Shown here piece by piece: positions 27,109 to 54,047 of a DNA stretch of 64,000 nucleotides. Source of the DNA: an uncultured Alphaproteobacteria bacterium (lineage in GTDB: Bacteria; Pseudomonadota; Alphaproteobacteria; RF32; CAG-239); contig CALXPL010000007.1 in assembly GCA_944390275.1 (NCBI GenBank), positions 29,595 to 93,594 on the forward strand, written 5' to 3'. Position 1 is the first letter of the stretch; the number at the start of each line of letters is the position of its first letter. Below the pieces are notes generated by a model. That model ran no database searches. It saw nothing but the letters and a program-made list of their open reading frames with translations, and was not told where the DNA came from. Both the position numbers and the translations under genes were made by a program.

Positions 27109-29059
27109 TCCCAGTGTTAAAATATTAGTAGGCTATCACAAAAAAGATAAATTATTAAAAGATGAAATATTAGTACCGATACATCTAGGTAGAGCATTGG
27201 CAACAGAAGCATCTAAAGACGGAGAGATGAGTCAAGAAGACTATCAATGGATGTTAGAAAACATGATAGGAGACGATACAGGAGAAAATATATCTCATCT
27301 GAATAGAATATTCAATGAAATGACAGGTATCTACTGGGCATGGAAAAATTATGATAAATTAGGCAATCCAGATTACATTGGTTTTATGCATTATCGAAGA
27401 TTATTTATATTTGATATGAGTATTTTAGAACAGCAAGTTGATAATGAGAATGGATGTTATAAAGTAAGAGGATGGAATGATGTCAATATTGATTCTTATA
27501 AGAATTCTATAAGCAGCATATTAAAAAAAGATACTGTTTGTGATATAATGATACCCCAAGCAAGAAAACAAGATATTAGTGTTAAAACACAATTTTTAGA
27601 ATCTCATCCTCATTTGGAAAATAATTTAAATATATTGCTAAAAATATTAGATGAAAATAAACAATATAAAGACATTAGTCAGAAATATTTTGAGGGAAAA
27701 GAGCAATATTGTTATAATATGTTTATAATGAAAAGAGAAGAATTCTTTCATTATTCGGATTTTATATTTAATATATTATTTAACTTATATCATCAGGTTA
27801 CAAAGCTTCCAGAGTTCGACAAATATAATGTAAATGACTTACGGTCAGTTGCTTTCTTGAGTGAAAGGTTAAGTGGTATATATTTCAAATCTCAAATACA
27901 CAAGTATAAAAATGATTATAAAGAACTTCCTATAGCATTTATAGAAAGTACTCAAGAAACTGTCATGCCATATTATTCTGAAAATAATATTCCAATTGTA
28001 ATGACAACAGATGAAAATTTTGTTCCTTATGTAGCTGTCACAATACAGTCGATAGTAAAGAATTCTTCAAGCAAAAATAATTATGACATTGTAGTTTTGC
28101 ATGATGGAATATCCGAAATTTCTAAAAAGCGTTTATTAGAAGTGATACAAGCAAAAAATAATTTTATTATACGATATATAGATATTCGTCCATATATAGA
28201 AAATTATACTTTAAAAAGTCGATTAAGACACATCAGTAAAGCAACATTTTATCGTTATGTAATACCAGATGTAATGCCACAATATAAAAAGGCAGTATAT
28301 TTAGATACAGATACAGTTGTTTTAAAGGATATCGCAAGTTTATACAACCAGAATATAGAAGGTTTTTATTTTGGAGCATGTCATGATGTGATAATTATGC
28401 AAAATATTGAGTTGGGAAAAAATAAACTCGATTATTTTGAAAATATAGTAAACATAAAAAATCCGTATGATTATTATTTTCAAGCAGGAGTACTGTTATT
28501 TAATATAGAATTAATGAGACAAGATAATATTGTTAAAAGTATGTTGGAAACAGCACAAGAAGGGATTTATATCTATTCTGGTCAGGATCCAATGAATAAA
28601 GTTTGTTGGAAAAAAACAAAATTTATATCCTATGAATGGAATTTTACAAATTTTATTGTTGAAGAAGGAAGTATTCAAAAAATTCCGAATAAATATTACG
28701 AAATGTATATTCAGACATCTTCTTCTCCAGCCATAATTCATTATGCTTCACATATCAAACCTTGGAATACTCCTAATTCGTATAAAGCTTCAGAATGGTG
28801 GAAGTATGCAAAGGAAACGCAATATTATGAAGAAATAATATATAAGAATGCTACTAAACGCATCATTCAAAAAGTAAATGAAAATATCGACATAGAAATA
28901 ATAAAGGAAGCATTTCATTATGGTAAAAGTAAGATAAAATACTGGCGATATAAAATTTTATCAAAGCTCACATGGGGTAAGAAGAAAAAAAGATATCGCC
29001 AAAAAAGAATAGAACTAAAACATAAATTACGCCAGATAAGAAAGTTTTTAAAAATATAA
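27098..29059 (+). CDS. Two-domain glycosyltransferase: DUF4422 (GT111-like) + GT8
   Basis: N-terminal ILVGYHK, GDDTGENISHLN...NEMTGIYWAWKN, IGFMHYRR; C-terminal ATFYR, YLDTD, FQAGVLL, QDPMN, IIHYASHIKPW. Confidence 0.88.
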   Translation: MSTNPSVKILVGYHKKDKLLKDEILVPIHLGRALATEASKDGEMSQEDYQWMLENMIGDDTGENISHLNRIFNEMTGIYWAWKNYDKLGNPDYIGFMHYRRLFIFDMSILEQQVDNENGCYKVRGWNDVNIDSYKNSISSILKKDTVCDIMIPQARKQDISVKTQFLESHPHLENNLNILLKILDENKQYKDISQKYFEGKEQYCYNMFIMKREEFFHYSDFIFNILFNLYHQVTKLPEFDKYNVNDLRSVAFLSERLSGIYFKSQIHKYKNDYKELPIAFIESTQETVMPYYSENNIPIVMTTDENFVPYVAVTIQSIVKNSSSKNNYDIVVLHDGISEISKKRLLEVIQAKNNFIIRYIDIRPYIENYTLKSRLRHISKATFYRYVIPDVMPQYKKAVYLDTDTVVLKDIASLYNQNIEGFYFGACHDVIIMQNIELGKNKLDYFENIVNIKNPYDYYFQAGVLLFNIELMRQDNIVKSMLETAQEGIYIYSGQDPMNKVCWKKTKFISYEWNFTNFIVEEGSIQKIPNKYYEMYIQTSSSPAIIHYASHIKPWNTPNSYKASEWWKYAKETQYYEEIIYKNATKRIIQKVNENIDIEIIKEAFHYGKSKIKYWRYKILSKLTWGKKKKRYRQKRIELKHKLRQIRKFLKI

Positions 29060-29118
29060 AAGATATAAATAGAATATGTAATTTTCAAATAGGCAATCAG
29101 AGAGTTAGAGACATATTA

Positions 29119-30210
29119 ATGAAGGACAAAAATATTAAAATAAATTATATTACGAAAGGAACAATAAATACAGGTTCAACAAGGTTACGAGTAATTAAGG
29201 TATCAGATATTTTAAAACATCGTAGCTTAAAGATTTTAATAAATGGCGATATTAAAAATTCTCACATTGTAATACTACAAAAAAGTTATCCTGTAAGTTT
29301 TTTATTTCAAAAATTTATAGAGTGTCGATTAGCAAATAAATATATAGTATTTGATATAGATGATTTTTTTCCGGAATTTTTACCTTTTGTAAAGTACTCA
29401 GATTGTGTGATTGTTTCAACAAATACTCTAAAGGATGTTTTAGCCCATTTAAATAGTAATATATTTGTTGTTGAAAATCCTATCGATATATTAAAAGAAA
29501 GAGATGTAAAAACTCAATTTTCAGAAGATATTAAAGTTTGTTGGTTCGGATATCATGTGAACAGCTATATTTTGAATAAGAAAAAGATTAATGATGTTAC
29601 AATTATATCTGATAAAGGCGATATTCTATGGAACGAAGATACAATAGATGAAAATATACAAAAGTTTGATTTATGTGTTATTCCTCAAGAAAAAAATATA
29701 CATACTTTATGCAAAACGCATTGTCGGATGTTAAAATGTTTGTATTTAGGAGTTCCTGTTTTGGTATCAGACATGCCTGAATATATTGAATTAGCGGAAA
29801 TTGTTCACTATCCAAAAGAATTTATCTTAAAAGATACTGATGATTGGAACGAAACAATAAAGAAAATAAAAAATAATCAGTTAAAATTATCATTTGATTT
29901 TTTGCAATGTCGAAAAATTTTATTAGAAAAATTTAATGCAGAAGTAATAGCTGAAAAATACTTTAATACTGTATATAATAATTATATAAAAAATCATACA
30001 AGTGCAAGTAAAAATACGTTAACAACGAAATTGTTAAGAGATTTTCAGTTAATAAATAATACAAAAAGACAAGCAAAAAAATACAAAAACACATATAGAT
30101 TAAAGTACATTTTTTCTTTTGGCAAAAAACGAGAAATATACAAACAACTATACTGTTTTTTTAAACAGCAGTTAAAACAGTCAAGAAATAGAGCCAAAGC
30201 GATACAATAA
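29119..30210 (+). CDS. Putative glycosyltransferase (GT-B/GT4-like)
   Basis: GSTRLR, VFDIDD, VCWFG, KCLYLGVPVLVS patterns; located in the glycan cluster. Confidence 0.65.
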   Translation: MKDKNIKINYITKGTINTGSTRLRVIKVSDILKHRSLKILINGDIKNSHIVILQKSYPVSFLFQKFIECRLANKYIVFDIDDFFPEFLPFVKYSDCVIVSTNTLKDVLAHLNSNIFVVENPIDILKERDVKTQFSEDIKVCWFGYHVNSYILNKKKINDVTIISDKGDILWNEDTIDENIQKFDLCVIPQEKNIHTLCKTHCRMLKCLYLGVPVLVSDMPEYIELAEIVHYPKEFILKDTDDWNETIKKIKNNQLKLSFDFLQCRKILLEKFNAEVIAEKYFNTVYNNYIKNHTSASKNTLTTKLLRDFQLINNTKRQAKKYKNTYRLKYIFSFGKKREIYKQLYCFFKQQLKQSRNRAKAIQ

Positions 30211-33150: not shown

Positions 33151-33630
33151 TTATTTTTTGACATAGCTGATTTCTTTGTCATAGATAATAATTTCTTTAC
33201 CGTTTTTCATACCGGTAGTTTTCGTTTCCTGATACCAAACATAATCAGGATGTTCAGGCAACATAGGCACGTAATTTCCGTCTTCATTTTTGAACATATC
33301 CAAATCATCAAGGATAATCGGGTTAACGTTACTAGGTTCCACGATTTTTTCCTCAATAATTTTAATACTGCGATAGCGTAAAATCCCTTTGATGGCAATA
33401 GTCAATCTATTGTCTATTGTTTCATCATAATCAGGAGGAGTAACGACCCATTCAAGAACGAGTTTATGTTGCCCATCGATTTTAGGATTTTTACTGATAA
33501 GTTCGATTTCTGTTTGCACCAAATCGACTTTCCATGCAGATAAATCTTTGTTAGGATGTTCCGAGTTTGAGACGGCAATTTCTTTTACGGCGTTAGCATT
33601 GGCATAACGCAAAAAGTTTTTAAATTTCAT
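33151..33630 (-). CDS. Hypothetical protein (ORFan cassette 1)
   Basis: 159-aa ORF with its own promoter and terminator; no recognisable family. Confidence 0.75.
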   Translation of the reverse strand: MKFKNFLRYANANAVKEIAVSNSEHPNKDLSAWKVDLVQTEIELISKNPKIDGQHKLVLEWVVTPPDYDETIDNRLTIAIKGILRYRSIKIIEEKIVEPSNVNPIILDDLDMFKNEDGNYVPMLPEHPDYVWYQETKTTGMKNGKEIIIYDKEISYVKK

Positions 33631-33701
33631 ACAATTATAGAATTAAATTAATAATAAAGAAACATGAAAAAGAATATAGGCCTTGTCGAAAATTTTGTCA
33701 A
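33631..33701 (-). promoter_or_regulatory. Sigma70-type promoter and SD-less AT-rich leader
   Basis: TTGACA-17-TATATT, then ...TTATTAATTTAATTCTATAATTGT-ATG. Confidence 0.7.
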
Positions 33702-33795
33702 TACATATTTTTAAGAGAAAACTTGCAATTTATAAGAGAATAATGTAAACTCAAAAGGCTAAAGATAAAGGAATAGAAAAACAAAATCACAAAGA

Positions 33796-35495: not shown

Positions 35496-35566
35496 TTGAC
35501 AAAAAAAGAAAATGTGCTATAAAAAAGCAAGCAAACAATTATTGTATCACATTTAAATTAATTATT
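35496..35566 (+). promoter_or_regulatory. Sigma70-type promoter and SD-less leader
   Basis: TTGACA-16-(TGc)TATAAA; leader ends TTTAAATTAATTATT-ATG. Confidence 0.7.
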
Positions 35567-36769
35567 ATGGGACTGAGAAAATTATTAGAACAAGCAAAGA
35601 CAAAAGACAAGATAAACAAGTGTCCGATGTCTGATTATGATGAAGCAATACTGTTCAAGATTCTAAAAGATGCCTATTTTGACAATATCGGATTTTGGGT
35701 TTTTGACTTTCGTCCGTATCAAGAGGATAAAAAGGTTAATCTGAAAAATGTTGAGATTTTTGTAGATTTGTATATTCAAGCACAACATTTGGAAAAATCA
35801 CTGTTATTAGGCTCTCCACGGCCGCATTTTATAGGGAAGATTGAAAATCTTCCAGAATTAAAACAATTCGGATTATCGGATTATTGGATAGAAATAAGCT
35901 GCCAAGACAGTAAAAATCTAGATGTTGATGTTTTAACATTATTGCCACAATTTATCGTAGGTTCACAGACGTTAAGTGATGAGCGATTTGTCAGAACATT
36001 TGATATATACCATTTCTTCATGAAGGTCGGAGAACAAAAGGAGAAGCAAGGCAAAGATTTTCTCCCGATGTTAAGATTGTTCAAAACAACGGCGCAAGAA
36101 TTATCAGATCTTGAAGAAGAGAAACATTATGAAGTTATTACGGCAGACGAAAACCTCTATAAGTATCTTCGCAGAGAAAGAGGGGAAAGTGAAAATTTCG
36201 TAACTTTTTTAAGAGATATACCGAGATTTTCACAAATACAATATGAAATAGGCGACTTTATAAGCCAAGATAACGGAATTTATAAAGACGTTAAAAAAGC
36301 GGTTATTGAAGGTCAAGAAGTATATGTTGCACCTGTTGAAACACCTCAAGCCGGAGATATCATAAAAGGAATTATGCTGGGAGAGGATCTCTATTTAAAT
36401 CTTTTGTACGAGGGACAACAAACTCTTTTTTATAAAGCAGAGAAACCACTCAGCGCAGAAGAGAAAAAGGTTCTTCATTTGCTTTGGGAAGATTTTTATG
36501 ATGTTATGGAGAAACATCAAAAGAAAATTGATAGTCAACTCCACAAATTAGGAATGCAATCACCACGAAAGCAATTAGAGGAAGAAAATAAAACATTGGT
36601 TATTAGTCGGAATGCGGATTATTTTCAACCTTTTGAGAATCAAAAAGATAAAGGTGTTATTTCCAAGACAGAAATAGTGAATACAGGCGTAAGCAAAGAA
36701 ATTCTGCAAAGGTTCGCTTTCATGATGGTTGGTACGGAATTGAACGGTTATTTCTTCAACAAGAAATAA
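35567..36769 (+). CDS. Hypothetical protein (ORFan cassette 2)
   Basis: 400-aa ORF between ssb and gyrA; no recognisable family. Confidence 0.8.
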   Translation: MGLRKLLEQAKTKDKINKCPMSDYDEAILFKILKDAYFDNIGFWVFDFRPYQEDKKVNLKNVEIFVDLYIQAQHLEKSLLLGSPRPHFIGKIENLPELKQFGLSDYWIEISCQDSKNLDVDVLTLLPQFIVGSQTLSDERFVRTFDIYHFFMKVGEQKEKQGKDFLPMLRLFKTTAQELSDLEEEKHYEVITADENLYKYLRRERGESENFVTFLRDIPRFSQIQYEIGDFISQDNGIYKDVKKAVIEGQEVYVAPVETPQAGDIIKGIMLGEDLYLNLLYEGQQTLFYKAEKPLSAEEKKVLHLLWEDFYDVMEKHQKKIDSQLHKLGMQSPRKQLEEENKTLVISRNADYFQPFENQKDKGVISKTEIVNTGVSKEILQRFAFMMVGTELNGYFFNKK

Positions 36770-36836: not shown

Positions 36837-37014
36837 GCCCGTAGAGCGCAAGGACGTTAACGAATTAGAAAACAAAAAAAAGGGAAATCAATTTTAAGGC
36901 GGTTTTTTTGAGCATAGAGAGCAAATCGTGTTTATAAGTCGGTAAAAAAGCTGGTTAAAGCGAAGAGAAGTTGTTATATTAGGAGCAGTTTAGCAGATAA
37001 TGAAAAGGAAAAAG

Positions 37015-39834
37015 ATGACAGAAGAAACAGAAGAAATAAGCTCTCCGGTTAATGCGGAAGGAATAATGCCGGTAGAAATTTCGGAAGAAATGCGACGTTC
37101 TTATTTAGATTATGCCATGAGCGTAATTGTCGCAAGAGCGTTGCCGGATGTTCGCGATGGATTGAAACCGGTTCACCGCCGTATTATTTATGGCATGTAT
37201 GAAAACGGTTATGATTATAATAAACCTTATAGAAAATCGGCACGTATCGTCGGAGACGTTATGGGTAAATATCACCCCCACGGCGATGCCGCCATATATG
37301 AATCCATGGTTCGCATGGCTCAACCCTTTTCAATGCGTTTGCCATTGGTTGATGGTCAAGGAAACTTCGGTTCAATGGACGGAGACAGCGCGGCAGCCAT
37401 GCGTTATACGGAAGCCCGTTTAGAAAAAGTAGCCCATGCGTTAATTGAAGATATTGATAAAGATACGGTTGATTTTGTACCGAACTATGATGAAACCTTG
37501 CAAGAGCCATCGGTTTTACCGGCAAGATACCCCAATTTATTGGTAAACGGTGCCAATGGTATTGCCGTTGGTATGGCAACGAATATTCCGCCGCACAATT
37601 TGGGAGAAGTTCTTGATGCGTGCTGTGCTTATATTGATAATCCGGAAATAAGCATAGATGACTTAATAAATATTGTTCCGGGACCTGATTTCCCAACCGG
37701 AGGATTGATTTTAGGTTACGGCGGAGCAAAGTCAGCATATTATACGGGTCGCGGTTCGGTAATGATGCGAGCCAAATGCTCGATAGAAGAGCTAAGAAAA
37801 GATAAAGAAGCGATAATCGTTCATGAAATTCCGTATCAGGTTAACAAGGCGGCTATGATAAGCAAGATAGCCGAATTGGTAAAAGATAAAAAGATAGATG
37901 GAATATCAGAAATTCGCGATGAATCAGACCGCCATGGTGTTCGTGTTGTTATAGAAATCAAAAGAGATTTCCAACCGGATGTTATTTTAAACCAGCTCTA
38001 TAAATTTACACCGTTACAAACCAGCTTTGGAATGAATATGTTGGCAATCAACGGCGGTCGTCCGATGATGATGAATTTAAAAGACATCATATCGGCCTTT
38101 GTCAATTTTAGAGAAGAGGTAATTCGTCGCCGTACCATATATGAATTAAACAAAGCGCGTGATAGAGCGCATATATTGGTAGGATTGGCAATCGCTGTTG
38201 AAAATCTTGATCCGGTAATTGAATTAATCCGCACTTCACCCAGCCCTCAAGAAGCCAAAGATGCATTATTATCCAAGGCATGGCCGGCAGGAGAGGTTGA
38301 AGCATTGGTACAGTTGATAGATGAACCGGATAGAAAAGTAGAAAACGGTTATTATCATTTATCGGAAGACCAAGCCCGTGCAATATTAGATTTAAAATTG
38401 CAAAGATTGACCGGCTTGGAGAGAGACAAAATTCATCAAGAATTATACGGTTTAGGTGATGAAATTAAAGAATGTCTTTCAATTTTGGCTTCACGCGAAA
38501 AATTATTTGGCATAATGAGAGATGAATTCATAGCCATAAAAGATGAATATGCAACACCACGCCGTACAAAAATTGAAGATATAGAATATGATACGGACAT
38601 TGAATCTTTGATTCAAAGAGAAGAAATGGTTGTTACGGTAACCGAAGCCGGATATATCAAGCGCGTTCCGTTAAACGCTTACAAAGCACAGAAGCGCGGC
38701 GGTAAAGGTAAGGCGGGAATGGCAACCAAGGAAGAAGATTTCGTAACACGTTTGTTTGTTGCTTCAACACACACACCTGTTTTGTTCTTTTCTTCTAAAG
38801 GTCAAGTTTATAAAATGAAAGTTTATAAACTTCCGTTAGGTTCACCAACCTCGAAAGGCAAACCGTTTATTAATTTGTTACCATTAAGCGATGGCGAAAA
38901 CATTACAACCATTATGAAACTTCCAGAGAATGAGGAAGAGTGCAACAATATGTCCATAATGTTTGCGACCTCACAAGGAAATGTTCGCCGTAACTCTTTG
39001 ATGGATTTTGTAAACGTACAATCCAACGGTAAGATAGCGATGAAATTGGATGAGGGTGACAAATTGGTAAATGTCCGCATTTGTACGGAAGCAGAAGACG
39101 TCATGCTTGCGGCCAAGAGCGGAAAATGCATTCGTTTTCCTGTAACGGAAGTAAGAATGTTTGTTGGTCGAAACTCGACAGGTGTAAGAGGAATTAAGTT
39201 GGCTTCGGGAGATGAAGTTATTTCTATGTCGATATTAAACCATAGTGATGCCACATCAGAAGAAAGAGACGAGTACGGACGCGTTGTTTCAGCCATGAAG
39301 AGAATACAAGCGGAAAGAGGCGATGATACACCGGTCAAATTTGAAGAATGCGGAGTAGAATTAAGCGTCTTGACGGCTGAAAAATATGCAGAAATGAAAG
39401 CCAACGAGCAATTTATCCTTTCAGTCACCTCAACAGGTTATGGCAAGCGCACCTCGGCCTATGAATATCGAATCACGGGTAGGGGAGGTCAAGGAATAGC
39501 CAATATGGAGATGTCGGCAAGAAATAAAGAGATAGTCAGTTCGTTCCCGATAGAAGATGACAATCAGTTAATGATGGTAACGGACGGAGGCAAATTAATC
39601 CGCATGCCGGTAGGCGACATACGCATAGCCGGAAGAAAGACCCAAGGGGTTATTCTTTTCCGCACGGCAGAGAACGAGCGAGTAGTTTCGGTAACGAAGC
39701 TGGAAGCGGATGCCGGAGATGACGAGGAATTGGAAGAAGAAACCGGTTCTGAAGTCTTAGGCGATAGTGCGGTAGATAATGATGATTTGGTATCGGATGA
39801 AGTAACCGAGCCAAGCGTTGATCAAGCAGATTAA
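37015..39834 (+). CDS. gyrA: DNA gyrase subunit A
   Basis: [31 protein letters not shown], GyrA-box QKRGGKG, acidic tail. Confidence 0.99.
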
Positions 39835-39847
39835 CGAACTCAAAAAT

Positions 39848-39879
39848 AAAAAAACGAGGAAAAAATCCTCGTTTTTTTT
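39848..39879 (+). terminator. gyrA terminator
   Basis: AAAAAAACGAGGA-aaaaa-TCCTCGTTTTTTTT. Confidence 0.88.
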
Positions 39880-39880
39880 G

Positions 39881-39954
39881 TTGCAAATTTTGTCGAATAT
39901 GGTAAAGTAAAACGAAATTTTTATATTATTAATCAAAATAAATTATTATGAAAA
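39881..39954 (+). repeat. Promoter/leader direct repeat, copy 1
   Basis: TTGCAAATTTTGTCGAATATGGTAA...ATTATTATGAAAA; 65/74 identical to 40547-40620 by manual alignment. Confidence 0.92.
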
Positions 39955-40493
39955 CAATTACGCATGAAAAAGACGCTTACAAAAAATTTAAAACAGTAGC
40001 AAATTTGATTAATGGGCAAGTTTATGCCAAGAGTATGAAATGCAAAAGTTATTGCGGAGATTTTCTTGTCGGAAAAAACTACAATTTATGGGTTGCGGAA
40101 AGTTTGGATATTGATACAAAGCAGACCATGCTCTGTGTAATGATAATAGGAGACAAAATCAATGTTGTCTATGAACTTCCGGAATATATTTTTGAAGACG
40201 TAAGCCGAGCAGAAGATGTGAAGGGTTTTACCGATGAAGAGGGTAAGAAGTATATCAGGATCGAAAGCAAGTATGATAAAGATATAATTTTCAAAGATGA
40301 AGATTATATCAGATATGAACTGGCATGGGTTATAACGCATTGTTTGTATTTCAAAAAAGGAGAAGTCAACATTCGTTTTGAAGAAGGAACAGCCTATTTA
40401 AGCGGAAAAGTTATACAAGGCAATGAAGCTGAGTTATTCCGGTTGGCATGTATGGAAGAGCTAGGATGGACAATTAACTTTGCCATAGAGTAA
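39948..40493 (+). CDS. Hypothetical protein (ORFan cassette 3)
   Basis: 181-aa ORF with own promoter and terminator. Confidence 0.8.
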   Translation: MKTITHEKDAYKKFKTVANLINGQVYAKSMKCKSYCGDFLVGKNYNLWVAESLDIDTKQTMLCVMIIGDKINVVYELPEYIFEDVSRAEDVKGFTDEEGKKYIRIESKYDKDIIFKDEDYIRYELAWVITHCLYFKKGEVNIRFEEGTAYLSGKVIQGNEAELFRLACMEELGWTINFAIE

Positions 40494-40505
40494 TAAAAGC
40501 GTCAC

Positions 40506-40543
40506 AAAAGCAAAGATTCAACAAGAAGAATCTTTGCTTTTTT
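40506..40543 (+). terminator. Terminator between cassettes 3 and 4
   Basis: AAAAGCAAAGATTC/GAATCTTTGCTTTT stem followed by T's. Confidence 0.88.
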
Positions 40544-40546
40544 ATA

Positions 40547-40620
40547 TTGCAAATTTTGTCGAATATGGTAATGTGAAGCGAAATTACATTATTATTAATT
40601 AAAATAGATTATTATGAAAA
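40547..40620 (+). repeat. Promoter/leader direct repeat, copy 2
   Basis: First 25 bp identical to 39881-39905; same 67-nt distance from -35 to ATG. Confidence 0.92.
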
Positions 40621-41456
40621 GAGTAAATTTTTCAGAAAAAGGAGTAAGCAAAGAGTATAAAAACTCTAAGTTTATCGAATTAATTGGCAAGCCGACTTTT
40701 CGTCGTCTTATCTGTTGCGAGAGTTGGGGGGCAATTAATGGTGTCGGAGAAGACATTTTTGTTAAAGGGCAAAGCTACGACATCTGGATATGCAATGTCT
40801 ATAAAAAGAAGGAAGGTACCTTTGCTCATTATGTAGCTGTTCCCAAAATTATTGAGGAAAAGGGACATACCGAAAAATATCGTTATATTCTGCCGCAAAC
40901 GATATTTGGAAAGATTGATGATCGGGAAGAAGCAATTACAACACAGATAGAAGTAAACAAGCCGAAATTAGTTGTCAAGGATGAGCATATAGAGGAGTTG
41001 GAAACGGAAATTTGCAAGGAAAAATTTAAGTTAATTCCAGATTTCAATAATAGTTTTTTGCTCATTCCATCGTGGTATTTAAACAAAGAAGAGGTAGAAC
41101 AATACATCAAAGCAAAAGATGTTGAAGTTTTTTCTTCATCCACGGACAAGAAAACAAAATCAGCGGCTTATTGGTTAAAGTTATATCCACATCTTCCGCA
41201 GAAATATATGTTGATACCAAGAATATTCGGAACATCAACAAAAAATATGTTTATCGCATGGGAGATAAGGAGAAAGATGAACAAAAAAACGACATTAGCA
41301 ACTTACTTCAATATCTATAACGGATGTGAGGATTGCAATTGGCAAGATTTGGATATTCAATATCCGCTAGGCAACAACCAAAAGCAAGCTCAAGTAAAAA
41401 GGTTATATGTCCGGTATAGCAAGAAAAAAATTAATGTAAGTTTCAAAAGAATCTGA
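40614..41456 (+). CDS. Hypothetical protein (ORFan cassette 4)
   Basis: 280-aa basic ORF with own promoter and terminator. Confidence 0.8.
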   Translation: MKRVNFSEKGVSKEYKNSKFIELIGKPTFRRLICCESWGAINGVGEDIFVKGQSYDIWICNVYKKKEGTFAHYVAVPKIIEEKGHTEKYRYILPQTIFGKIDDREEAITTQIEVNKPKLVVKDEHIEELETEICKEKFKLIPDFNNSFLLIPSWYLNKEEVEQYIKAKDVEVFSSSTDKKTKSAAYWLKLYPHLPQKYMLIPRIFGTSTKNMFIAWEIRRKMNKKTTLATYFNIYNGCEDCNWQDLDIQYPLGNNQKQAQVKRLYVRYSKKKINVSFKRI

Positions 41457-41460
41457 AAAG

Positions 41461-41499
41461 AAGCGAAACCCACAAGGAACATCTTGTGGGTTTTGCTTT
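41461..41499 (+). terminator. Terminator after cassette 4
   Basis: AAGCGAAACCCACAAG/CTTGTGGGTTTTGCTT stem. Confidence 0.8.
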
Positions 41500-41579
41500 A
41501 TGAGAAAAGGAATTTTGTAAGGCTTGCAAATCAAAAAATATGACTTTATATTAAAAAAAGTAAGTTGAGGAGAAAAAGA

Positions 41580-42122
41580 ATGAAATTATATATATTTCGG
41601 CACGGGCAGACAGAGGGAAACCGTTTGCAAATATGTCAGACGGCGGATTTTGAGTTGAATGAGGAAGGAATAAAGCAAGCAGAACGTTTAAGAGATGATT
41701 TGGCCAAGATAAATTTGCCGATAATTTATGCCAGTCCGTTTAAGAGAGCCGAAATGACAGGAAGAATAGTTGCTTCTGCACACAAGACACCGGTAGAAAT
41801 ACGAGAAGGATTGGAAGAAATGCGCTTTGGTCAGGCGGAAGGCATGCTTGAAGCCGAAATGCCCAAAAAGTTTGGCGAAGAATTGTATCAACAACTGATA
41901 AATGTTCCCGAACCGCATTGGGACAGCAAAATACCGGAAGGAGAGAGCAAGAGGGAAGCCTTAGAGAGATTTAAGCGTAGTCTGGATAAGATAAAAAAGA
42001 TATGTCCCTATGACACAGCCGGAGTCGCAAGTCATGGACACATTATGAGAATTTTTTATTATGACCATTTTAAAGAAGATAAAAAATTTGAGAATTGTGA
42101 ATATTTTGAACTAGAAATATAG
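41580..42122 (+). CDS. Histidine phosphatase family protein
   Basis: FRHGQT, YASPFKRA, LEEMRFG, VASHGHI; GAGGAG RBS. Confidence 0.92.
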   Translation: MKLYIFRHGQTEGNRLQICQTADFELNEEGIKQAERLRDDLAKINLPIIYASPFKRAEMTGRIVASAHKTPVEIREGLEEMRFGQAEGMLEAEMPKKFGEELYQQLINVPEPHWDSKIPEGESKREALERFKRSLDKIKKICPYDTAGVASHGHIMRIFYYDHFKEDKKFENCEYFELEI

Positions 42123-42131
42123 GAGAGCAAA

Positions 42132-42473
42132 ATGCCCTTTGTAACCATAGACACAAACGTTAAAGTAAACGTAACCGATACGATGTTGGAAGAAGTAACG
42201 GATATCATAGTAAAAACGCTGCATAAGCCGGAAAATGCCGTTACGGTAAAAATCAATACGGGAGTAGTCATGGCTTTTGGCGGCAGCAGTAAGCCCCCTG
42301 GAGCATTGATTGAAGTAAAATCAATAGGCTACGGTAACAAGAAAGAAGAATTAGCTCAACAATTTTTGGATTTTGCTCAAACGTATTTTAATGCGGAAGG
42401 GCAATTTGTCGGGATTCACTTTGTTGATATGAAAGCGAATGATGTGTCTCATAATGGAGTGTTAATGGGATAA
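42132..42473 (+). CDS. MIF/phenylpyruvate tautomerase family protein
   Basis: Starts M-P-F (catalytic Pro1), TNV, KPE, MAFGGS..P, EVKSIG; 113 aa. Confidence 0.88.
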   Translation: MPFVTIDTNVKVNVTDTMLEEVTDIIVKTLHKPENAVTVKINTGVVMAFGGSSKPPGALIEVKSIGYGNKKEELAQQFLDFAQTYFNAEGQFVGIHFVDMKANDVSHNGVLMG

Positions 42474-42481
42474 AAAAGAAG

Positions 42482-42545
42482 TTGACATTTTTGTCTAAAA
42501 GGAGTAAAAAAGCAAAGATAGTAAATATAATTAAAATTTATAATT
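42482..42545 (+). promoter_or_regulatory. Sigma70-type promoter and SD-less leader
   Basis: TTGACA-TTTTTGTC...-TAAAAA (17-nt spacer); leader ends AATTAAAATTTATAATT-ATG. Confidence 0.65.
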
Positions 42546-43385
42546 ATGGAAAAAATTAATTTTTCAGCCAAAGAATGGCAGTGTGCAGAAAAAGTGTTAA
42601 ATGAATTTTCTTACCATACGGACTGCCTCCGCAATGGTCAGTTAACCGTGGAACCAAAATATATTGTTTGCATGGATGACGACGCAAGCTCGGCATTTTA
42701 TGCGGCAAAAGTCTATTTTGCCTGTAAAAAACAATATAAACATGAACCGTTGGTTCTATGTGTCGGCGGAAAAGGGATGCTGTCAAAATATCTGAATTAT
42801 GACGGCTGTTCCGAAGGAGAAAAATTGGCGCATGTTTGTCGCCGATTAGGTGTAAAAAGAGTAATGGTTTTGGACAAAGGCAACAATACGGGAGCCAATG
42901 TTAAAGAAATCATTGAAAACACGGAAAAGGGAGCCCCGATAATTTTTTGCCCGACCAAACGTTTAAGTTTACGTTTGGAACGCACGGTAAAATTCAGTAC
43001 GACACAATTTCCCGGAACAGAACCGTTGAACGCATGGTTCTATGTCGCACCGGAAACATTGGAAGATATGTTGCAAGCGCACAACGGCAAGGGACTGGCC
43101 GGAGGGTTAGCCTTGTTGTCGGAGTTAGCTTCGATTTATGAAAGGTTGCGGAGATACAAAAACATCTTTAATGCACCTTTGGAAAAGAAGCCCTCACAAG
43201 AGGGAGTAGAAGCCGCGGCATATCTGGAAAAACACTATCCGATAAAAATAAAACGCTTACCTTTATCTGCGCCGATACAATTTGTTAAAATGTATTGGGC
43301 GGTGATGACAGGGAAGAAAGCCGTTCAAGAAGACTTGGAAAAACATGTCGAAGAATGGCAAACCCGCGTTGAAGAAGGATTGTAA
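42546..43385 (+). CDS. YdcF/DUF218-like protein (cassette 5)
   Basis: LCVGGKG...SEGEKLAHVCRRLGV...DKGNNTGANVKE resembles the DUF218 core. Confidence 0.6.
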   Translation: MEKINFSAKEWQCAEKVLNEFSYHTDCLRNGQLTVEPKYIVCMDDDASSAFYAAKVYFACKKQYKHEPLVLCVGGKGMLSKYLNYDGCSEGEKLAHVCRRLGVKRVMVLDKGNNTGANVKEIIENTEKGAPIIFCPTKRLSLRLERTVKFSTTQFPGTEPLNAWFYVAPETLEDMLQAHNGKGLAGGLALLSELASIYERLRRYKNIFNAPLEKKPSQEGVEAAAYLEKHYPIKIKRLPLSAPIQFVKMYWAVMTGKKAVQEDLEKHVEEWQTRVEEGL

Positions 43386-43389
43386 AAAT

Positions 43390-43427
43390 AAAAAAAAGGT
43401 TGGATTATTATCCAACCTCTTTTTTTT
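43390..43427. terminator. Bidirectional terminator
   Basis: A-run, AGGTTGGAT/ATCCAACCT, T-run, between convergent genes. Confidence 0.85.
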
Positions 43428-43431
43428 GAGG

Positions 43432-44895
43432 TTAATTTGCAGAAACCAAACCATGGCTAAAGGCATAGATAGCCCAAAGAGCAATAATAACAAAAAGCCA
43501 AGCAAGTTTCTTTTCATCTTGAGAAAAGACAGGTTGGTCAGGAGCATTTTGTTTTCGTGCTTTAATAAAGACAGGAATGCCTAAAGCTAAAATAATGACC
43601 GCCAACATGGAATATTTAAGTCCGGCAGCATAGATTAGCCAAACAGCATAAGCCGAGCCGGCAATAGCTGTAAATAAAGCGATAGAACGTGAGGTTTCTG
43701 ATTTCTGAGGATATTCGCCGTCTGTGCAGAGTTTCCATAAATAAATGCAAGACATTAAATAAGCCGGTAAGACCATAACGCTGGTAATGTTAAGCATAAC
43801 TGACCAAGCGTTATTGGCAAAATAAACCAGGAACATACAAATTTGCATGGCGAAGCTGGTAATCCATAAGGAAGCGGAAGGCGAACCGACAGCATTTTCT
43901 TTCATGAATAATTTAGGAAAAGTACCGTTTTGAGCGGCAGCAAAAGGGATTTGAGCGGTTACAATAGTCCAAGCCAACCAACTACTTAAGACGGCAATAA
44001 GCAAGCCGATATTCATCAACCAAGCACCTTTTTTACCGATAATAAGTTCTAAGATACCAACGGTTGAAGGGTTAGCAATATTTTTGAGTTCGTCTTGATG
44101 CATATATCCGTAAGGAAGCATAGAGAGAAGGGCATAGATGATAAGACAAGAGATAAAGCCGAGAAAAGTAGCTTTACCGATATCTTTATAATCTTTAGCT
44201 TTGTCAGAGAGAACGACAGCGCCTTCAATACCGATAAAGGCCCAGAGTGTAACCATCATCGTACTTTTGATTTGAGTTCCGAGACTGCCTAAACTAGCCA
44301 AAGTTTTCGTAGATTCCCCCCAAAAGTCAAAATCAAATTTATCGGAATTAAAGACCACAGCCATAATTAAAATAAAAAGAAAGAGGGGAACAATTTTCAA
44401 GATAGTACCGATAAGATTAACGATACTAGCTTGCTGAACACCTTTAAGGATCATAAAATTAAATCCCCAAATAATAACGGAACCGCCGATAATTGAAGCA
44501 AAATTATTCCCACCGGCAAAATAGGGAGGAAAGAAATAATTAAGAGCATCCATTGTGATAACGGCATAACTGACATTACCGAAGACTTGGCAGAGCCAAT
44601 AAGACCAACCGATAGTAAAACCGGCATAAGCCCCAAAACCGGCACGGCTGTATGAGTAAATACCGGTAGTTAAATCAGGTTTCGTTAAAGAGAGAACCGA
44701 AAAAGTTTTGACAATAAAATAAATACCGATACCGGTAATGACCCAAGAGAGGAGAACGGCACCGGCAGAAGCACCGGCAGCCATATTTTGAGGCAAGCTG
44801 TAAATACCGCCGCCTAACATAGAGCTGACGACGATACAAGCCAAAGCGAAAACGCCTAGGCCTTTTTTGTTGGATTGAGAATTATTTTTTTGCAT
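43432..44895 (-). CDS. aaxC: Arginine/agmatine antiporter (APC family, chlamydial AaxC-like)
   Basis: SSMLGGGIYSLPQNMA, FTIGWSYWLCQVFGNVSYAVITMDALNYFFPPYFAGGN, TLWAFIGIEGAVV. Confidence 0.85.
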   Translation of the reverse strand: MQKNNSQSNKKGLGVFALACIVVSSMLGGGIYSLPQNMAAGASAGAVLLSWVITGIGIYFIVKTFSVLSLTKPDLTTGIYSYSRAGFGAYAGFTIGWSYWLCQVFGNVSYAVITMDALNYFFPPYFAGGNNFASIIGGSVIIWGFNFMILKGVQQASIVNLIGTILKIVPLFLFILIMAVVFNSDKFDFDFWGESTKTLASLGSLGTQIKSTMMVTLWAFIGIEGAVVLSDKAKDYKDIGKATFLGFISCLIIYALLSMLPYGYMHQDELKNIANPSTVGILELIIGKKGAWLMNIGLLIAVLSSWLAWTIVTAQIPFAAAQNGTFPKLFMKENAVGSPSASLWITSFAMQICMFLVYFANNAWSVMLNITSVMVLPAYLMSCIYLWKLCTDGEYPQKSETSRSIALFTAIAGSAYAVWLIYAAGLKYSMLAVIILALGIPVFIKARKQNAPDQPVFSQDEKKLAWLFVIIALWAIYAFSHGLVSAN

Positions 44896-44945
44896 GATAA
44901 ATTCCTGAAAAGAAAGCCCCGAAAGGAGATTCGGGGCTAGAGAGA

Positions 44946-45533
44946 TTACAAAGAAGCCGGAGCGGCATGTTCAAAATTTAAGAAACCCATAGCGGTTAAG
45001 CAATAACCGAATTGTTCAGTAATATTGATGTAATTATGCCACATTTGGAATTCGGAATGTTGTTCAACACCGCGTAGTTCAAGTTCATGACGCAAAGATT
45101 TGCGGAGCCACATTTCAGAATGACCTTTAGCAATTTCATCATCAATATGAGTATCAAAGTATTCAACATATTCAGCCGCCCAACCGCCGATAAGTTCGCC
45201 TTTTTTATTTTTTCCCCAGCAAACGCCGATACCAGTAGCAATAGCTTTGTGGTCATCACGACTTGCTCCGTTAGCCGCCATAATGACTTCCAGTACGGCA
45301 CCATGTTTGAATTGTTTTACGATTTTGTCATTGAGAGGAACGATTTTACCGAAAAGTTCTTTAGGCAAAACAGAAGTATAAGGAACAATGTTAAAGTTTT
45401 CGATACGGGCTTGCAACAAGGCAGAATCATAACAAAAAGTTTCAAAAGGTTGAGGAGGGATACCTTCATTAGCTTGTCCGGCACCGCCGGTAATAAAAGC
45501 AAAAGTAGGATAACGAACACCTTGAGTAGTCAT
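44946..45533 (-). CDS. aaxB: Pyruvoyl-dependent arginine decarboxylase (chlamydial AaxB-type)
   Basis: [34 protein letters not shown] with self-cleavage site T53-S54; [11 protein letters not shown]; 195 aa. Confidence 0.93.
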
Positions 45534-50962: not shown

Positions 50963-51949
50963 TTATTTTTTTCTTTCGGGTTTGATTCCGGTTAGGATAA
51001 AATCAACTCTTTCTTCGGGAGAAAGGCGTTTAGGATAATATTTATCAACTTTTTTCAAAACTTTACCCAAGCCGATTCCGTTAGCAATCTGTACAGCCAA
51101 ACCGGGGCGAGCATTAAGTTCAAGCATCATCGGTCCTTTGTCGGCATCAAGGACAATATCGGCACCGAGATATCCTAAACCGGTCATTTCATAAGCCTTT
51201 GCTCCGATTAAGAGATGTTCGCGCCAAAAAGGAACTTCTATTTTAGATAAATCGGCACCGGTATCCGGATGATGAGTAATAGGCATATTGCGCATAACGG
51301 CTTTAAGGGTACGTCCGGTTTTAACATCAAGCCCGACCCCGACAGCTCCTTGGTGAAGATTGGCACGTCCGCCTGAAGCAGCTGTAGCCAAACGAGTCAT
51401 AGCCATAACGGGATAGCCTTTATAGACAATAACGCGTACGTCAGGAATACCTTGATAGCTATAATTATCAAAGATATGGCTGAAATTGACCATTTCTTCA
51501 ATCACGGCAGTATCATATTGACCACCTAAACTATACAATCCGCTGAGGGTGTTAGAAATATGTTGATAAATTTCTTTATAAGAAAGAATCCGTCCGGAAG
51601 GAGTTGTAAAGGTATTTAAGTCATGAGATTTTATCACAAGGACACCTTTTCCGCCGCTTCCGTGAGCGGGTTTAATAACGAAGGAATTCCAGTCTTTAAC
51701 CAGCTCTAAAAGTTTGTTAACTTCGTGTTGGTATTCGATAATTCCGATGAGGCGAGGGGTATTAATCCCATATTGCAGAGCCAAGGCTTTAGTCTGTACT
51801 TTATCATCGACCAAGGGATAAAGGTTACGTTTGTTAAGTTTGGCAATAAATTTAAAATTACGGCTATTCATACCGAGAATACCGGCATTACGGAGTTCGG
51901 CGGGAGAAGCAAAATATTTTGACAGCCATTGAAACATATTCAAAAACAT
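50963..51949 (-). CDS. Alpha-L-glutamate ligase-like ATP-grasp protein
   Basis: GILGMNSRN, LVDDKVQTK, VIKPAHGSGGKG, GIPDVRVIV, ANLHQGA, LELNARPGLAVQIAN. Confidence 0.92.
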   Translation of the reverse strand: MFLNMFQWLSKYFASPAELRNAGILGMNSRNFKFIAKLNKRNLYPLVDDKVQTKALALQYGINTPRLIGIIEYQHEVNKLLELVKDWNSFVIKPAHGSGGKGVLVIKSHDLNTFTTPSGRILSYKEIYQHISNTLSGLYSLGGQYDTAVIEEMVNFSHIFDNYSYQGIPDVRVIVYKGYPVMAMTRLATAASGGRANLHQGAVGVGLDVKTGRTLKAVMRNMPITHHPDTGADLSKIEVPFWREHLLIGAKAYEMTGLGYLGADIVLDADKGPMMLELNARPGLAVQIANGIGLGKVLKKVDKYYPKRLSPEERVDFILTGIKPERKK

Positions 51950-51951
51950 CC

Positions 51952-53484: not shown

Positions 53485-53504
53485 AAGAGAGACCTTATAT
53501 AAAA

Positions 53505-54047
53505 TTAGTTAAGAGTGTTGGAAAGCGAAGTATCGACGATAGCGCGTCCGGTTAAGATATTTCGACCGATAAGGGCTTGGTATTCAAATTTTTCGCGGTC
53601 AGCGAGGTTAAAACGGACACCGGTAATAATTTCTTTTCCGAATTTGACTTCCATATCGACGGCATAACGCTTTTCATGTTCATTAATGCGTTTAATATCA
53701 ACGACTTTTTGGATTTTCTTTTCAAAATGGTGCATTTCACCGTTTTCGCGATTAACAAGGTCAAAAGCGACCCATTTTTCTCCGTCGCGCTCGAATTTTT
53801 TAATATTTTTGGCATCAATGGACGACATTTCGGCACCGGTATCAATGCGAGCTTGAAAAGGTGTCTTCATTGGAAGAAAATAGATAGGTTCGGTTTCACC
53901 GATAATGCCTAAAGAGTGTCGAGGAGTTTTTTTAACTTCGACAGCGGGGACGATTTCGGGGCGCACGGTCTGCTGAGTTGAGCAGGCAGAGAGAAAGGCA
54001 AAAGAAAACATTGCAAAAAACATATAAATATATTTCATTTTTTTCAA
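53505..54047 (-). CDS. RimK-associated 'ATP-dependent Zn protease'/retropepsin-like lipoprotein
   Basis: Lipobox FLSAC, ARIDTGA, FNLADR, ALIGRNIL. Confidence 0.88.
   Translation of the reverse strand: MKKMKYIYMFFAMFSFAFLSACSTQQTVRPEIVPAVEVKKTPRHSLGIIGETEPIYFLPMKTPFQARIDTGAEMSSIDAKNIKKFERDGEKWVAFDLVNRENGEMHHFEKKIQKVVDIKRINEHEKRYAVDMEVKFGKEIITGVRFNLADREKFEYQALIGRNILTGRAIVDTSLSNTLN

What the first reader, a model, noticed from the sequence alone, without database searches (positions are those of the whole stretch)
39881..40620. 74-bp promoter/leader direct repeat in front of two barely related proteins
Seen in sequence: 39881-39954 and 40547-40620 align without gaps at 65/74 (first 25 bp identical), each directly after a terminator. 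The downstream 181-aa and 280-aa proteins share at most one short motif (FLVGKNYNLWV versus FVKGQSYDIWI). Inference: either the regulatory module was reused to capture different ORFs, or a tandem duplication occurred with the coding sequence diverging much faster than the promoter. Recombination between the repeats would excise cassette 3 as a 666-bp unit.
Basis: partly seen in the sequence, partly recalled or inferred. Interest (0 to 1): 0.68.

Follow-up and report, generated by a model that had tools for sequence, protein, structure and literature searches.

The report
Duplicated promoter kept alike by gene conversion
Two neighbouring genes of unknown function in an uncultured gut alphaproteobacterium are old, diverged tandem duplicates, and their promoter-plus-leader regions have stayed nearly identical because they are constrained and are repeatedly copied onto each other; this is a clear but mechanistically ordinary case.

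Summary
Positions 39881-39954 and 40547-40620 match at 65/74 without gaps, the first 25 nt are identical, they lie 666 bp apart, and each follows an intrinsic terminator. Each copy reads as a sigma-70-type promoter (TTGCAA, 16 nt, TGnTAAAGT or TGnTAATGT) followed by an unstructured, AU-rich leader of about 33 nt with no Shine-Dalgarno sequence.

The two proteins are not unrelated. A 22-sequence profile of the p280 family matches the p181 family over about 100 N-terminal residues (hhalign 95.9%, E 5e-9), while unrelated neighbours score under 2%. Both genes are under purifying selection (dN/dS 0.16 and 0.10). The pair already exists in relatives whose synonymous sites are saturated.

The regulatory copies evolve in concert. 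In seven assemblies of the same species (about 98.4% identical) the two copies are 74/74 identical. All nine window differences lie in 39906-39941, and each turns copy 1 into copy 2 (P 7e-7 or lower).

The promoter box TTGCAAATTTTGTC(A/G)AA survives in relatives with only 25% protein identity. I found no integrase, no attC-like site and no 666-bp deletion or circle junction, although read depth was too low to exclude rare events.

Verdict: ancient tandem paralogues whose promoter/leader is homogenised by gene conversion. It is a known kind of process and of modest interest.

The parts
37000..39834 (+). gyrA, the conserved left anchor of the locus
   Evidence: The ORF is. Precomputed Pfam domains DNA_topoisoIV and DNA_gyraseA_C are recorded for its orthologues in related loci. 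Members of the p280 family lie downstream of gyrA in L005, L032, L034, L036 and L038.
39848..39878 (+). Intrinsic terminator hairpin of gyrA. Conspecific strains have a 3.4-kb insertion in place of 39834-39870.
   Evidence: Terminator scan; sequence; breakpoints at window 39833/39871.
39881..39954 (+). Repeat copy 1, the promoter and leader of p181. -35 TTGCAA 39881-39886; TGn 39900-39902; -10 TAAAGT 39903-39908; inferred transcription start about 39914-39917; AU-rich leader without Shine-Dalgarno sequence up to the ATG at 39948.
   Evidence: The leader is unstructured and has no Rfam match above threshold. The nine sites that differ from copy 2 lie in 39906-39941.
39948..40493 (+). p181, a 181-aa protein of unknown function and the fast-evolving paralogue. 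Its N-terminal residues about 6-107 are homologous to the p280 family.
   Evidence: Orthologues at 77% (L001) and 38% (232-aa protein of L005/L014/L015). hhalign against A7: 95.9%. dN/dS 0.16. No hit in Pfam, NCBIfam, PHROGs or PADLOC.
40506..40541 (+). Intrinsic terminator of p181
40547..40620 (+). Repeat copy 2, the promoter and leader of p280. -35 TTGCAA 40547-40552; TGn 40566-40568; -10 TAATGT 40569-40574; ATG at 40614.
   Evidence: The box TTGNAANTTTTGTCNAA is present upstream of the orthologue in 14 of the 15 related loci held at that point. It also stands in front of family members with 25% protein identity.
40614..41456 (+). p280, a 280-aa protein of unknown function. It belongs to a small uncharacterised family: 27 cluster representatives matched at E up to 1e-3.
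   Evidence: dN/dS 0.10. A metatranscriptome contig lies on 40681-40866.
40726..40731 (+). G6 run inside p280. Six of eight conspecific assemblies have G5, which is a frameshift.
   Evidence: P0016 is the frameshifted product.
41466..41493 (+). Terminator-like hairpin after p280
42482..42573 (+). A more diverged look-alike module in front of the unrelated p279 gene. It has TTGACATTTTTGTCTAA, the leader end TTAAAATTTATAATTATG, and its first nine codons resemble those of p280.
   Evidence: (D1). p279 is not homologous to the p280 family.
35496..35569 (+). Look-alike promoter and leader in front of the unrelated 400-aa ORFan: TTGACA, 16 nt, TATAAA, with the leader end TTTAAATTAATTATTATG.
   Evidence: Not homologous to the p280 family.

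Best explanation
p181 (39948-40493) and p280 (40614-41456) are ancient tandem paralogues of an uncharacterised protein family. The family is restricted to uncultured gut alphaproteobacteria and usually sits just downstream of gyrA.

**Transcription units.** Each gene is its own unit. It has a sigma-70-type promoter with an extended -10 (TTGCAA, 16 nt, TGnTAAAGT or TGnTAATGT), an unstructured AU-rich leader of about 33 nt with no Shine-Dalgarno sequence, the ORF, and then an intrinsic terminator.

**What happened to the coding sequences.** After the duplication they diverged until only the N-terminal domain of about 100 residues is recognisable by profile comparison.

**Why the 74-bp regulatory module stayed almost identical.** Two reasons apply.
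- It is functionally constrained. A 17-nt box covering the -35 element and the spacer, plus the TGnTA of the extended -10, is conserved in relatives whose proteins are only 25-35% identical. This suggests a shared regulator or promoter-recognition determinant.
- The two copies recombine with each other by non-reciprocal gene conversion. The module is the only stretch of homology left, so conversion tracts are confined to it.

**Shown.** The repeat; the N-terminal homology; purifying selection on both genes; the conversion signature among strains; conservation of the box.

**Inferred.** The promoter and transcription-start assignment; leader function (Shine-Dalgarno-independent, possibly S1-dependent initiation); co-regulation of the two genes; RecA dependence of the conversion.
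For: **The repeat.**
- Two hits against none expected; 83 nt at 87% identity, spacing 666.
- It is the outlier among 780 pairs of gene starts.

**Paralogy of the two proteins.**
- hhalign of the p181 family rises as the p280 profile is deepened: 23.9% (A2), 44.2% (A6), then 95.9% with E 5e-9 over 100 columns starting near residue 6 (A7).
- The controls p279 and p400 score 1.7% and 0.3%.
- hmmsearch with the A7 profile gives p181 17.7 bits and the 232-aa orthologue 22.9 bits, against about -1 for the controls.
- The predicted order of secondary-structure elements agrees, though both models have low confidence.

**Age of the pair.** The order gyrA, p181 orthologue (232 aa, 38% identity), p280 orthologue (68%), His_Phos_1 (histidine phosphatase) gene, MIF gene is kept in L005, L014 and L015. 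Synonymous sites there are saturated (pS about 0.8).

**Both genes are functional.** dN/dS is 0.16 and 0.10.

**Gene conversion.**
- Seven conspecific assemblies (L021-L026 and L028, about 98.4% identical) have copy 1 equal to copy 2 at 74/74.
- All nine differences in 39906-39941 change copy 1 into copy 2. The only other substitution up to 40895 is at 40056 (L021 also carries the G-run indel at 40726). Binomial P is 7e-7 to 2e-11.
- Against the sister lineage L001 the site patterns form a mosaic: 2 follow orthology, 1 follows paralogy, and 4 are 'cross' sites clustered in the centre. Cross-copy identities (88%) are as high as or higher than orthologous ones (82%, 89%).
- Both haplotypes were assembled independently in several runs. 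A Nanopore read spans gyrA, the insert, copy 1, p181 and copy 2.

**Constraint on the module.**
- The box TTGNAANTTTTGTCNAA stands upstream of the orthologue in 14 of 15 related loci.
- It is present in L020 (34% protein identity), L032 (25%) and L036.
- TGnTA lies at a fixed distance from the -35 in all of them.

**The leader.** It is unstructured (z +0.9) and matches no Rfam family above threshold. Most other genes in the window have Shine-Dalgarno-like sequences.
Against: - The promoter scores only 8/12 against the plain TTGACA/TATAAT consensus, so the scanner did not list it.
- No transcription start site was measured. RNA data were too sparse.
- The homology covers only the N-terminal third to half of the proteins. 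The C-terminal parts show no detectable similarity, so a domain-level fusion or replacement cannot be excluded.
- The AlphaFold models were poor (pLDDT 54 and 38), so there is no structural confirmation.
- The converted haplotype always also carries a 3.4-kb insertion that ends at the left edge of copy 1. The 'conversion' may therefore have been part of one larger ectopic recombination event rather than a simple intrachromosomal conversion.
- No trans-acting factor for the conserved box is known.
Confidence: 0.72

Rival explanations
1. Module capture: a portable promoter/leader unit was placed in front of unrelated ORFs by recruitment, not by gene duplication. On this reading p181 and p280 share only regulatory DNA and perhaps a short N-terminal tag.
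For: The C-terminal parts of p181 and p280 show no similarity. Genes that are clearly unrelated (p279, p400, the 159-aa ORF at 33151-33630, and several ORFans in relatives) carry look-alike leaders ending in TTAAAATnnATTATTATG or containing TATTATTAA. p280 and p279 share 46 nt at 80% identity across the start codon (family D1).
Against: The N-terminal homology extends over about 100 residues, far beyond the repeat, which ends 4 nt after the ATG. The pair is syntenic and old. The p280/p279 similarity in codons 2-10 is matched by other, unrelated pairs of genes with Lys-rich N-termini.
Confidence: 0.12
2. Excisable cassette: the 74-bp direct repeats are recombination sites. The 666-bp unit (module plus p181 plus terminator) is excised or re-inserted as a mobile cassette, in the manner of an integron.
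For: The direct repeats are 666 bp apart and are 74/74 identical in many strains. That is enough homology for occasional RecA-dependent or slippage-mediated deletion (general knowledge). p181 is absent from some related species, L003 and L034.
Against: No skipping joint or circle junction appears in 3 raw-read runs or in the contigs of 6 other DNA runs. No deletion allele appears among about 12 conspecific or sister contigs. No Pfam integrase or recombinase domain was found among the 26 window proteins scanned. The repeats carry a promoter and lie 5' of the ORFs, unlike attC sites. In L003 the slot holds a different gene on the opposite strand, not a clean repeat-to-repeat deletion.
Confidence: 0.04
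3. Selection only: the two modules are alike purely because the same regulator and RNA polymerase contacts are conserved, with no recombination between the copies.
For: The -35/spacer box and TGnTA are conserved across very distant relatives.
Against: Nine clustered differences within a background that is about 98.4% identical overall (98.7-99.6% outside copy 1), every one changing copy 1 into the state of copy 2, including leader positions that vary freely between species. The site pattern against L001 is a mosaic.
Confidence: 0.08
4. Assembly artefact: the near-identical copies were collapsed or swapped by metagenome assemblers, so the apparent strain difference is not real.
For: The repeat is longer than typical assembler k-mers, and mixed strains coexist in some samples (run X9).
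Against: The same two haplotypes recur in many independent assemblies from different studies and pipelines. The window-type copy 1 is found unchanged in runs X1, X5 and X13. One Nanopore read carries gyrA, the insert, copy 1, p181 and copy 2 in a single molecule.
Confidence: 0.03

Closest known systems
Concerted evolution of duplicated bacterial genes by gene conversion (for example the tufA/tufB pair of Salmonella; PMC5485169)
   Same: Sequence is transferred non-reciprocally between two copies in one chromosome. This keeps them more alike than their age predicts, and the tracts are bounded by the ends of the homology.
   Different: Here the converted segment is only the 74-83-bp promoter/leader. 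The coding sequences have diverged beyond the reach of recombination. The copies are direct repeats 666 bp apart rather than distant genes.
Borrelia burgdorferi 'upstream homology box' gene family (ospE/ospF-related erp genes; Marconi et al. 1996, J Bacteriol 178:5615, as listed in the references of PMC10016077)
   Same: A highly conserved upstream regulatory block stands in front of paralogous genes whose coding regions are much more divergent. Recombination among family members has been reported.
   Different: Those genes are plasmid or prophage-borne surface lipoproteins with many copies, and their operator-binding regulators are known. Here there are two chromosomal copies next to gyrA, no signal peptide is evident in the N-terminal sequences (not run through a predictor), the function is unknown and no regulator is known. 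I did not test membership; this is an analogy only.
Integron gene cassettes
   Same: Compact units of one ORF arranged in a row, and variable content of the slot between species.
   Different: There is no intI and no attC. Each unit has its own promoter and terminator. The repeats are 5' regulatory DNA. No excision products were found. It is not a member.
AU-rich translational-enhancer leaders without a Shine-Dalgarno sequence, thought to be bound by ribosomal protein S1 (general knowledge)
   Same: An unstructured, A/U-rich 5' UTR without a Shine-Dalgarno sequence lies directly before the ATG.
   Different: Function was not measured here. A recurrent TATTATTAA motif 12-28 nt upstream of the start codon is shared by several unrelated ORFan genes of this clade. 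To my knowledge it has not been described.

Membership tests
Tandem paralogues with concerted evolution of a shared segment | The flanked genes are homologous, that is, they derive from a duplication | tested here: met
   hhalign A3 against A7: 95.9%, E 5e-9, 100 columns. HMM scores 17.7 and 22.9 bits against about -1 for controls. Controls at 1.7% and 0.3%. The homology is limited to the N-terminal domain.
Tandem paralogues with concerted evolution of a shared segment | Paralogous copies within a genome are as similar as, or more similar than, orthologous copies between genomes; changes are clustered and directional | tested here: met
   74/74 identity in seven conspecific assemblies against 65/74 in the window. 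The nine differences are clustered (P 7e-7 or lower) and all point towards copy 2. Mosaic site patterns against L001.
Tandem paralogues with concerted evolution of a shared segment | The mechanism is homologous recombination (dependent on RecA) | not testable with these tools
   This needs genetics in a cultured strain.
Sigma-70-type promoter with extended -10 | -35 and -10 hexamers 16-18 nt apart, with TGn before the -10 | tested here: met
   TTGCAA, 16 nt, TGG, then TAAAGT or TAATGT. This is 8/12 to the consensus, below the 9/12 threshold of the scanner. TTG and TGnTA lie at fixed spacing in orthologous promoters.
Sigma-70-type promoter with extended -10 | Transcription starts 6-9 nt downstream of the -10 | tested here: inconclusive
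   The RNA contigs are too sparse. One 151-nt piece starts at 39919.
Integron cassette array | An integron integrase (intI) lies next to the array | tested here: not met
   No Pfam integrase or recombinase domain among the 26 window proteins scanned between 20.6 and 62.9 kb. The neighbours are uvrA, ssb, gyrA, recG and mfd.
Integron cassette array | attC imperfect inverted repeats at the 3' end of each promoterless cassette | tested here: not met
   The 3' ends are plain, unrelated terminator hairpins. The shared sequence is a direct repeat 5' of the ORFs and contains a promoter.
Integron cassette array | Excised circles or deletion junctions | tested here: inconclusive
   No joints in any run, but raw-read depth was about 5x and contigs drop rare variants.
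Cis-regulatory RNA leader (riboswitch, attenuator or known sRNA) | A conserved secondary structure or a match to an Rfam family | tested here: not met
   The only matches are below threshold and fall on the terminator (E 0.08-0.5, 27-29 bits against gathering scores of 48-55). The leaders fold no better than shuffled sequence (z +0.9).
MITE or REP-type mobile repeat | Terminal inverted repeats or a palindromic structure, with many dispersed copies | tested here: not met
   Only two copies in 64 kb, in the same orientation. No inverted-repeat arms were reported at the repeat. No hit in JGI metagenome contigs. The five genome-contig hits to the promoter box are three gut alphaproteobacterial genomes, at or near the p280-family locus (UMGS63, S36M_St_32, HGM16780), plus two Clostridia MAGs that I did not examine further.

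The most novel reading that the evidence does not exclude
The conserved 17-nt box (TTGCAAATTTTGTC(A/G)AA) and the shared TATTATTAA leader may mark a dedicated regulon of fast-evolving ORFan genes in gut alphaproteobacteria. On this reading the module is an operator for an unknown regulator and also a portable patch of homology. Ectopic recombination at that patch would reshuffle genes in the variable slot downstream of gyrA. The 3.4-kb insertion of Cys-rich secreted-protein genes, which ends exactly at the module and travels together with the converted copy, would be one such event.
Probability: 0.15. Interest if true: 0.55.

Novelty: new member of a known kind. Interest (0 to 1): 0.3.

Why it matters
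This is a compact natural example of regulatory DNA and coding DNA of duplicated genes following different evolutionary rules. The proteins drift apart, while the promoter/leader is held together by constraint and by gene conversion that can be seen among strains of one species.

It also flags three things for follow-up:
- a small, uncharacterised protein family tied to the gyrA neighbourhood of uncultured gut alphaproteobacteria;
- an unusually conserved promoter box, which would be a good bait for finding its regulator;
- a possible translation-initiation signal without a Shine-Dalgarno sequence, shared by several ORFan genes.

None of this changes a general concept.

Tried and rejected
**Function of the proteins.**
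- Pfam, NCBIfam, PHROGs and PADLOC scans of p181, p280, p279, p400 and p159 gave nothing usable. The only PHROG hit is to a family of unknown function at E 4e-4.
- A profile search of PDB sequences gave only a chance-level hit.
- The AlphaFold2 models rest on shallow alignments and have low confidence (pLDDT 54 and 38). Foldseek on the better one gave no match at E 1e-3 or lower. Structure therefore could not be used to test the homology.

**RNA explanations.** The Rfam scan found no family above threshold. The leaders show no structure. I rejected the riboswitch and sRNA ideas.

**Excision.** Read and contig laying found no joints. RNA runs were too sparse to map a transcription start.

**Other copies elsewhere.** The scan of JGI metagenome contigs for the 25-mer found nothing. 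The GTDB genome scan found the box in three gut alphaproteobacterial genomes, at or near the p280-family locus, plus two Clostridia MAGs that I did not follow up and take as probable chance matches.

**Known binding-site consensuses.** I compared the box by eye, from memory, with FNR/FixK boxes (TTGA-N6-TCAA), CtrA boxes (TTAA-N7-TTAA), PmrA-type repeats, and ECF or RpoH promoters. The spacing or sequence does not fit any of them. These are not formal tests.

Full report
**1. The observation.**

The 25-mer TTGCAAATTTTGTCGAATATGGTAA occurs exactly twice in the 64-kb window, at 39881 and 40547, both on the + strand. None was expected in shuffled sequence. The ungapped match extends to 83 nt (39872-39954 and 40538-40620, 87%), with a start-to-start spacing of 666.

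Each copy follows a terminator-like hairpin: 39848-39878 after gyrA and 40506-40541 after the 181-aa ORF. The match ends 4 nt after the start codons at 39948 and 40614.

As an empirical control I compared all 780 pairs of gene starts in the window, anchored at the start codon. This pair is the clear outlier, at 0.92 identity in the -67 to -31 part (z 7.3) and 0.80 in the last 40 nt (z 5.4).

**2. Anatomy.**

Each copy reads TTGCAA, 16 nt, TGG, then TAAAGT (copy 1) or TAATGT (copy 2), which is a sigma-70-type promoter with an extended -10. It matches the plain consensus at only 8/12, so the generic scanner did not list it. The assignment therefore rests on comparison with relatives. TTG and TGnTA stand at the same distance from each other in front of every orthologue I recovered.

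Downstream lies a leader of about 33 nt that is 85-93% A+T over the last 40 nt, has no Shine-Dalgarno sequence, and ends in TTAAAATnnATTATTATG. It folds no better than shuffled sequence (z about +0.9). No Rfam family matches it above threshold. Most other genes in the window, including the next two (a histidine-phosphatase-family gene, Pfam His_Phos_1, and a MIF-family gene), do have Shine-Dalgarno-like sequences.

**3. Organism and context.**

The window is a chromosomal core region containing uvrA, ssb, gyrA, an RND efflux pump, recG and mfd. It belongs to an uncultured alphaproteobacterium found in chicken gut metagenomes. Its relatives come from assemblies deposited as 'uncultured Azospirillum sp. 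UMGS63', 'Alphaproteobacteria bacterium HGM16780' and similar. No integrase or other mobile-element gene appeared among the 26 window proteins I scanned.

**4. The two proteins are paralogues.**

Both proteins are orphans in the large databases: 2-3 clusters for p181 and 4 for p280.

An exhaustive HMM search with the p280 alignment found 27 cluster representatives. Most are 230-250 aa long, and the library carries no names or annotation for them. I then compared the p181 family (A3) with successively deeper p280 profiles:

| p280 profile | Sequences | hhalign probability | E-value |
|---|---|---|---|
| A2 | 5 | 23.9% | 8e-4 |
| A6 | 6 | 44.2% | 2e-4 |
| A7 | 22 | 95.9% | 5e-9 |

The A7 match covers 100 columns, aligning p181 residues 6-107 with p280 residues 7-143. 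The unrelated neighbours p279 and p400 score 1.7% and 0.3% against the same profile. hmmsearch with the A7 profile gives 17.7 bits for p181 and 22.9 bits for its 232-aa orthologue, against about -1 for the controls.

The two genes therefore share a homologous N-terminal domain. Their C-terminal parts show no detectable relation. The AlphaFold models were too poor to add anything (pLDDT 54 and 38) beyond a matching order of predicted elements.

**5. The pair is old and both genes are functional.**

The order gyrA, p181 orthologue, p280 orthologue, histidine-phosphatase gene, MIF gene is kept in L005, L014 and L015. There p181 is 38% and p280 68% identical to their orthologues, and synonymous sites are saturated (pS about 0.8). 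Against the sister lineage L001, dN/dS is 0.16 for p181 and 0.10 for p280. This is ordinary purifying selection, with p181 evolving about three times faster at non-synonymous sites.

More distant family members also lie downstream of gyrA. They sit in arrays of variable content: none, one or several extra small ORFs, some of which are partial paralogues (L032, L034, L036, L038).

**6. The regulatory copies evolve in concert.**

Eight contigs of the same species (L021-L028) align to window 39871-43500 at about 98.4% identity. In the seven in which copy 1 is complete, it is identical to copy 2 at 74/74.

All nine differences between the window and these strains in this region lie in 39906-39941, and each converts copy 1 into the copy-2 state. 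The only other substitution before 40895 is at 40056; L021 also carries the G-run indel at 40726. The binomial P for the clustering is 7e-7 to 2e-11.

The sister lineage L001 shares the copy-1-specific states at two positions, in the -10 (TAAAGT) and at TAAATT. The window form is therefore ancestral at these sites and the other strains are the converted ones.

Between the window and L001 the four sequences are about equidistant (80-89%). Two sites follow orthology, one follows paralogy, and four 'cross' sites cluster in the centre. This mosaic is expected from repeated exchange.

Both haplotypes recur in independent runs. One Nanopore read covers gyrA, the insert, copy 1, p181 and copy 2, which argues against an assembly artefact.

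**7. Constraint.**

The box TTGNAANTTTTGTCNAA stands upstream of the p280 orthologue in 14 of 15 related loci. It is still TTGCAAATTTTGTCAAA in L020 (protein 34% identical) and in L032 (25%), and TTGAAGAATTTGTCAAA in L036.

This conservation of the spacer as well as the -35 element is stronger than that of the protein. It suggests a bound factor, but I could not match the box to any consensus I know.

**8. The excision idea.**

No read or contig joins the two repeats. I checked three raw-read runs (one of which laid no reads) and the contigs of six other DNA runs. None of the roughly twelve conspecific or sister contigs lacks the 666-bp unit.

The raw-read depth was only about 5x, so rare deletions between 74-bp repeats remain possible. 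They would be expected at a low rate from general knowledge of homologous recombination. Nothing points to a programmed cassette system.

**9. Verdict.**

The best explanation is ancient tandem paralogues, each with its own promoter, leader and terminator. The 5' regulatory module is kept nearly identical by functional constraint and by gene conversion confined to the only homology left.

It works like the known cases of concerted evolution (tuf genes, PMC5485169). It also resembles families with a conserved upstream block and divergent ORFs, such as the Borrelia 'upstream homology box' genes listed in the references of PMC10016077. It is a new example of a known kind. The protein family and the conserved box are uncharacterised.

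Noticed in passing
window 40726-40731 (inside p280): The G6 run is G5 in 6 of 8 conspecific assemblies (L021, L022, L024-L027). This frameshifts p280, so gene callers report a 246-aa remnant. L023 and L028 keep G6. A 139-aa frameshift product (P0016) is a cluster representative in the protein library. This could be phase variation or a widespread pseudogene allele.
   Followed up: partly
window 39834-39870; L021 2462-5924: Conspecific strains carry a 3.4-kb insertion of three minus-strand genes (421, 270 and 347 aa). They encode Cys-rich proteins with signal-peptide-like N-termini and have no Pfam hit. The insertion lies between the gyrA stop and copy 1 and replaces the gyrA terminator. Its right end abuts the T-run before the module, and it always travels with the converted copy 1. 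Both haplotypes coexist in run X9. Part of the insert is 69% identical in DNA to window 16614-17780.
   Followed up: partly
window 33631-33705 (-), 35496-35569, 42482-42548; also L003, L005, L029, L032, L035, L036, L038: Several unrelated ORFan genes (159, 400 and 279 aa here, and many in relatives) share the same architecture: a strong TTGACA-type promoter, then a leader of about 40 nt with no Shine-Dalgarno sequence and a TATTATTAA motif 12-28 nt before the ATG. Housekeeping neighbours have Shine-Dalgarno sequences. This may be a clade-specific initiation or regulatory signal.
   Followed up: partly
window 42528-42573 versus 40596-40641: p279 is unrelated to p280 over its length (hhalign 1.7%), yet it shares 46 nt at 80% identity across the start codon. 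This includes the N-terminal peptide (MEKINFSAKEW against MKRVNFSEKGV), which is also the p280-family N-terminal motif (M..INLSE.EV). It may be a captured 5' end, or chance among Lys-rich N-termini.
   Followed up: partly
window 15844-17708 (-); L003 3337-3963, 10682-12619; L005 9671-10495, 14422-15294; L020 1395-2714: A fluid family of Cys-rich proteins with signal-peptide-like N-termini recurs at changing positions around the gyrA locus in different species. A shared motif is CPFG.(Y/T)W.C. None has a Pfam hit.
   Followed up: no
window 39948-41456 versus 37792-39834 (comparison with L001): Synonymous divergence between the window and the sister lineage L001 is very uneven: dS 0.08 in the gyrA 3' part, 0.75 in p181 and 0.41 in p280. 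This suggests recombination with divergent lineages or locally accelerated change in the ORFan pair.
   Followed up: no
window 43432-45533 (-): A pyruvoyl-dependent arginine decarboxylase gene (Pfam PvlArgDC) lies next to an amino-acid permease gene. This pairing resembles the chlamydial aaxB/aaxC acid-resistance module (comparison from memory) and would fit a gut lifestyle.
   Followed up: no
window 26000-30000: G+C falls to 26-30% in a block of sugar-modifying genes: an NAD-dependent epimerase/dehydratase, a DUF4422 plus GT8 glycosyltransferase, and a 363-aa ORF with no Pfam hit. It is probably a horizontally exchanged surface-polysaccharide segment.
   Followed up: no
window 50963-54047 (-): A conserved trio of genes: an ATP-grasp protein (ATPgrasp_ST), an inactive transglutaminase fused to a 7TM domain, and a putative ATP-dependent Zn protease. 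The ATP-grasp and transglutaminase-7TM genes also lie next to each other in L003.
   Followed up: no
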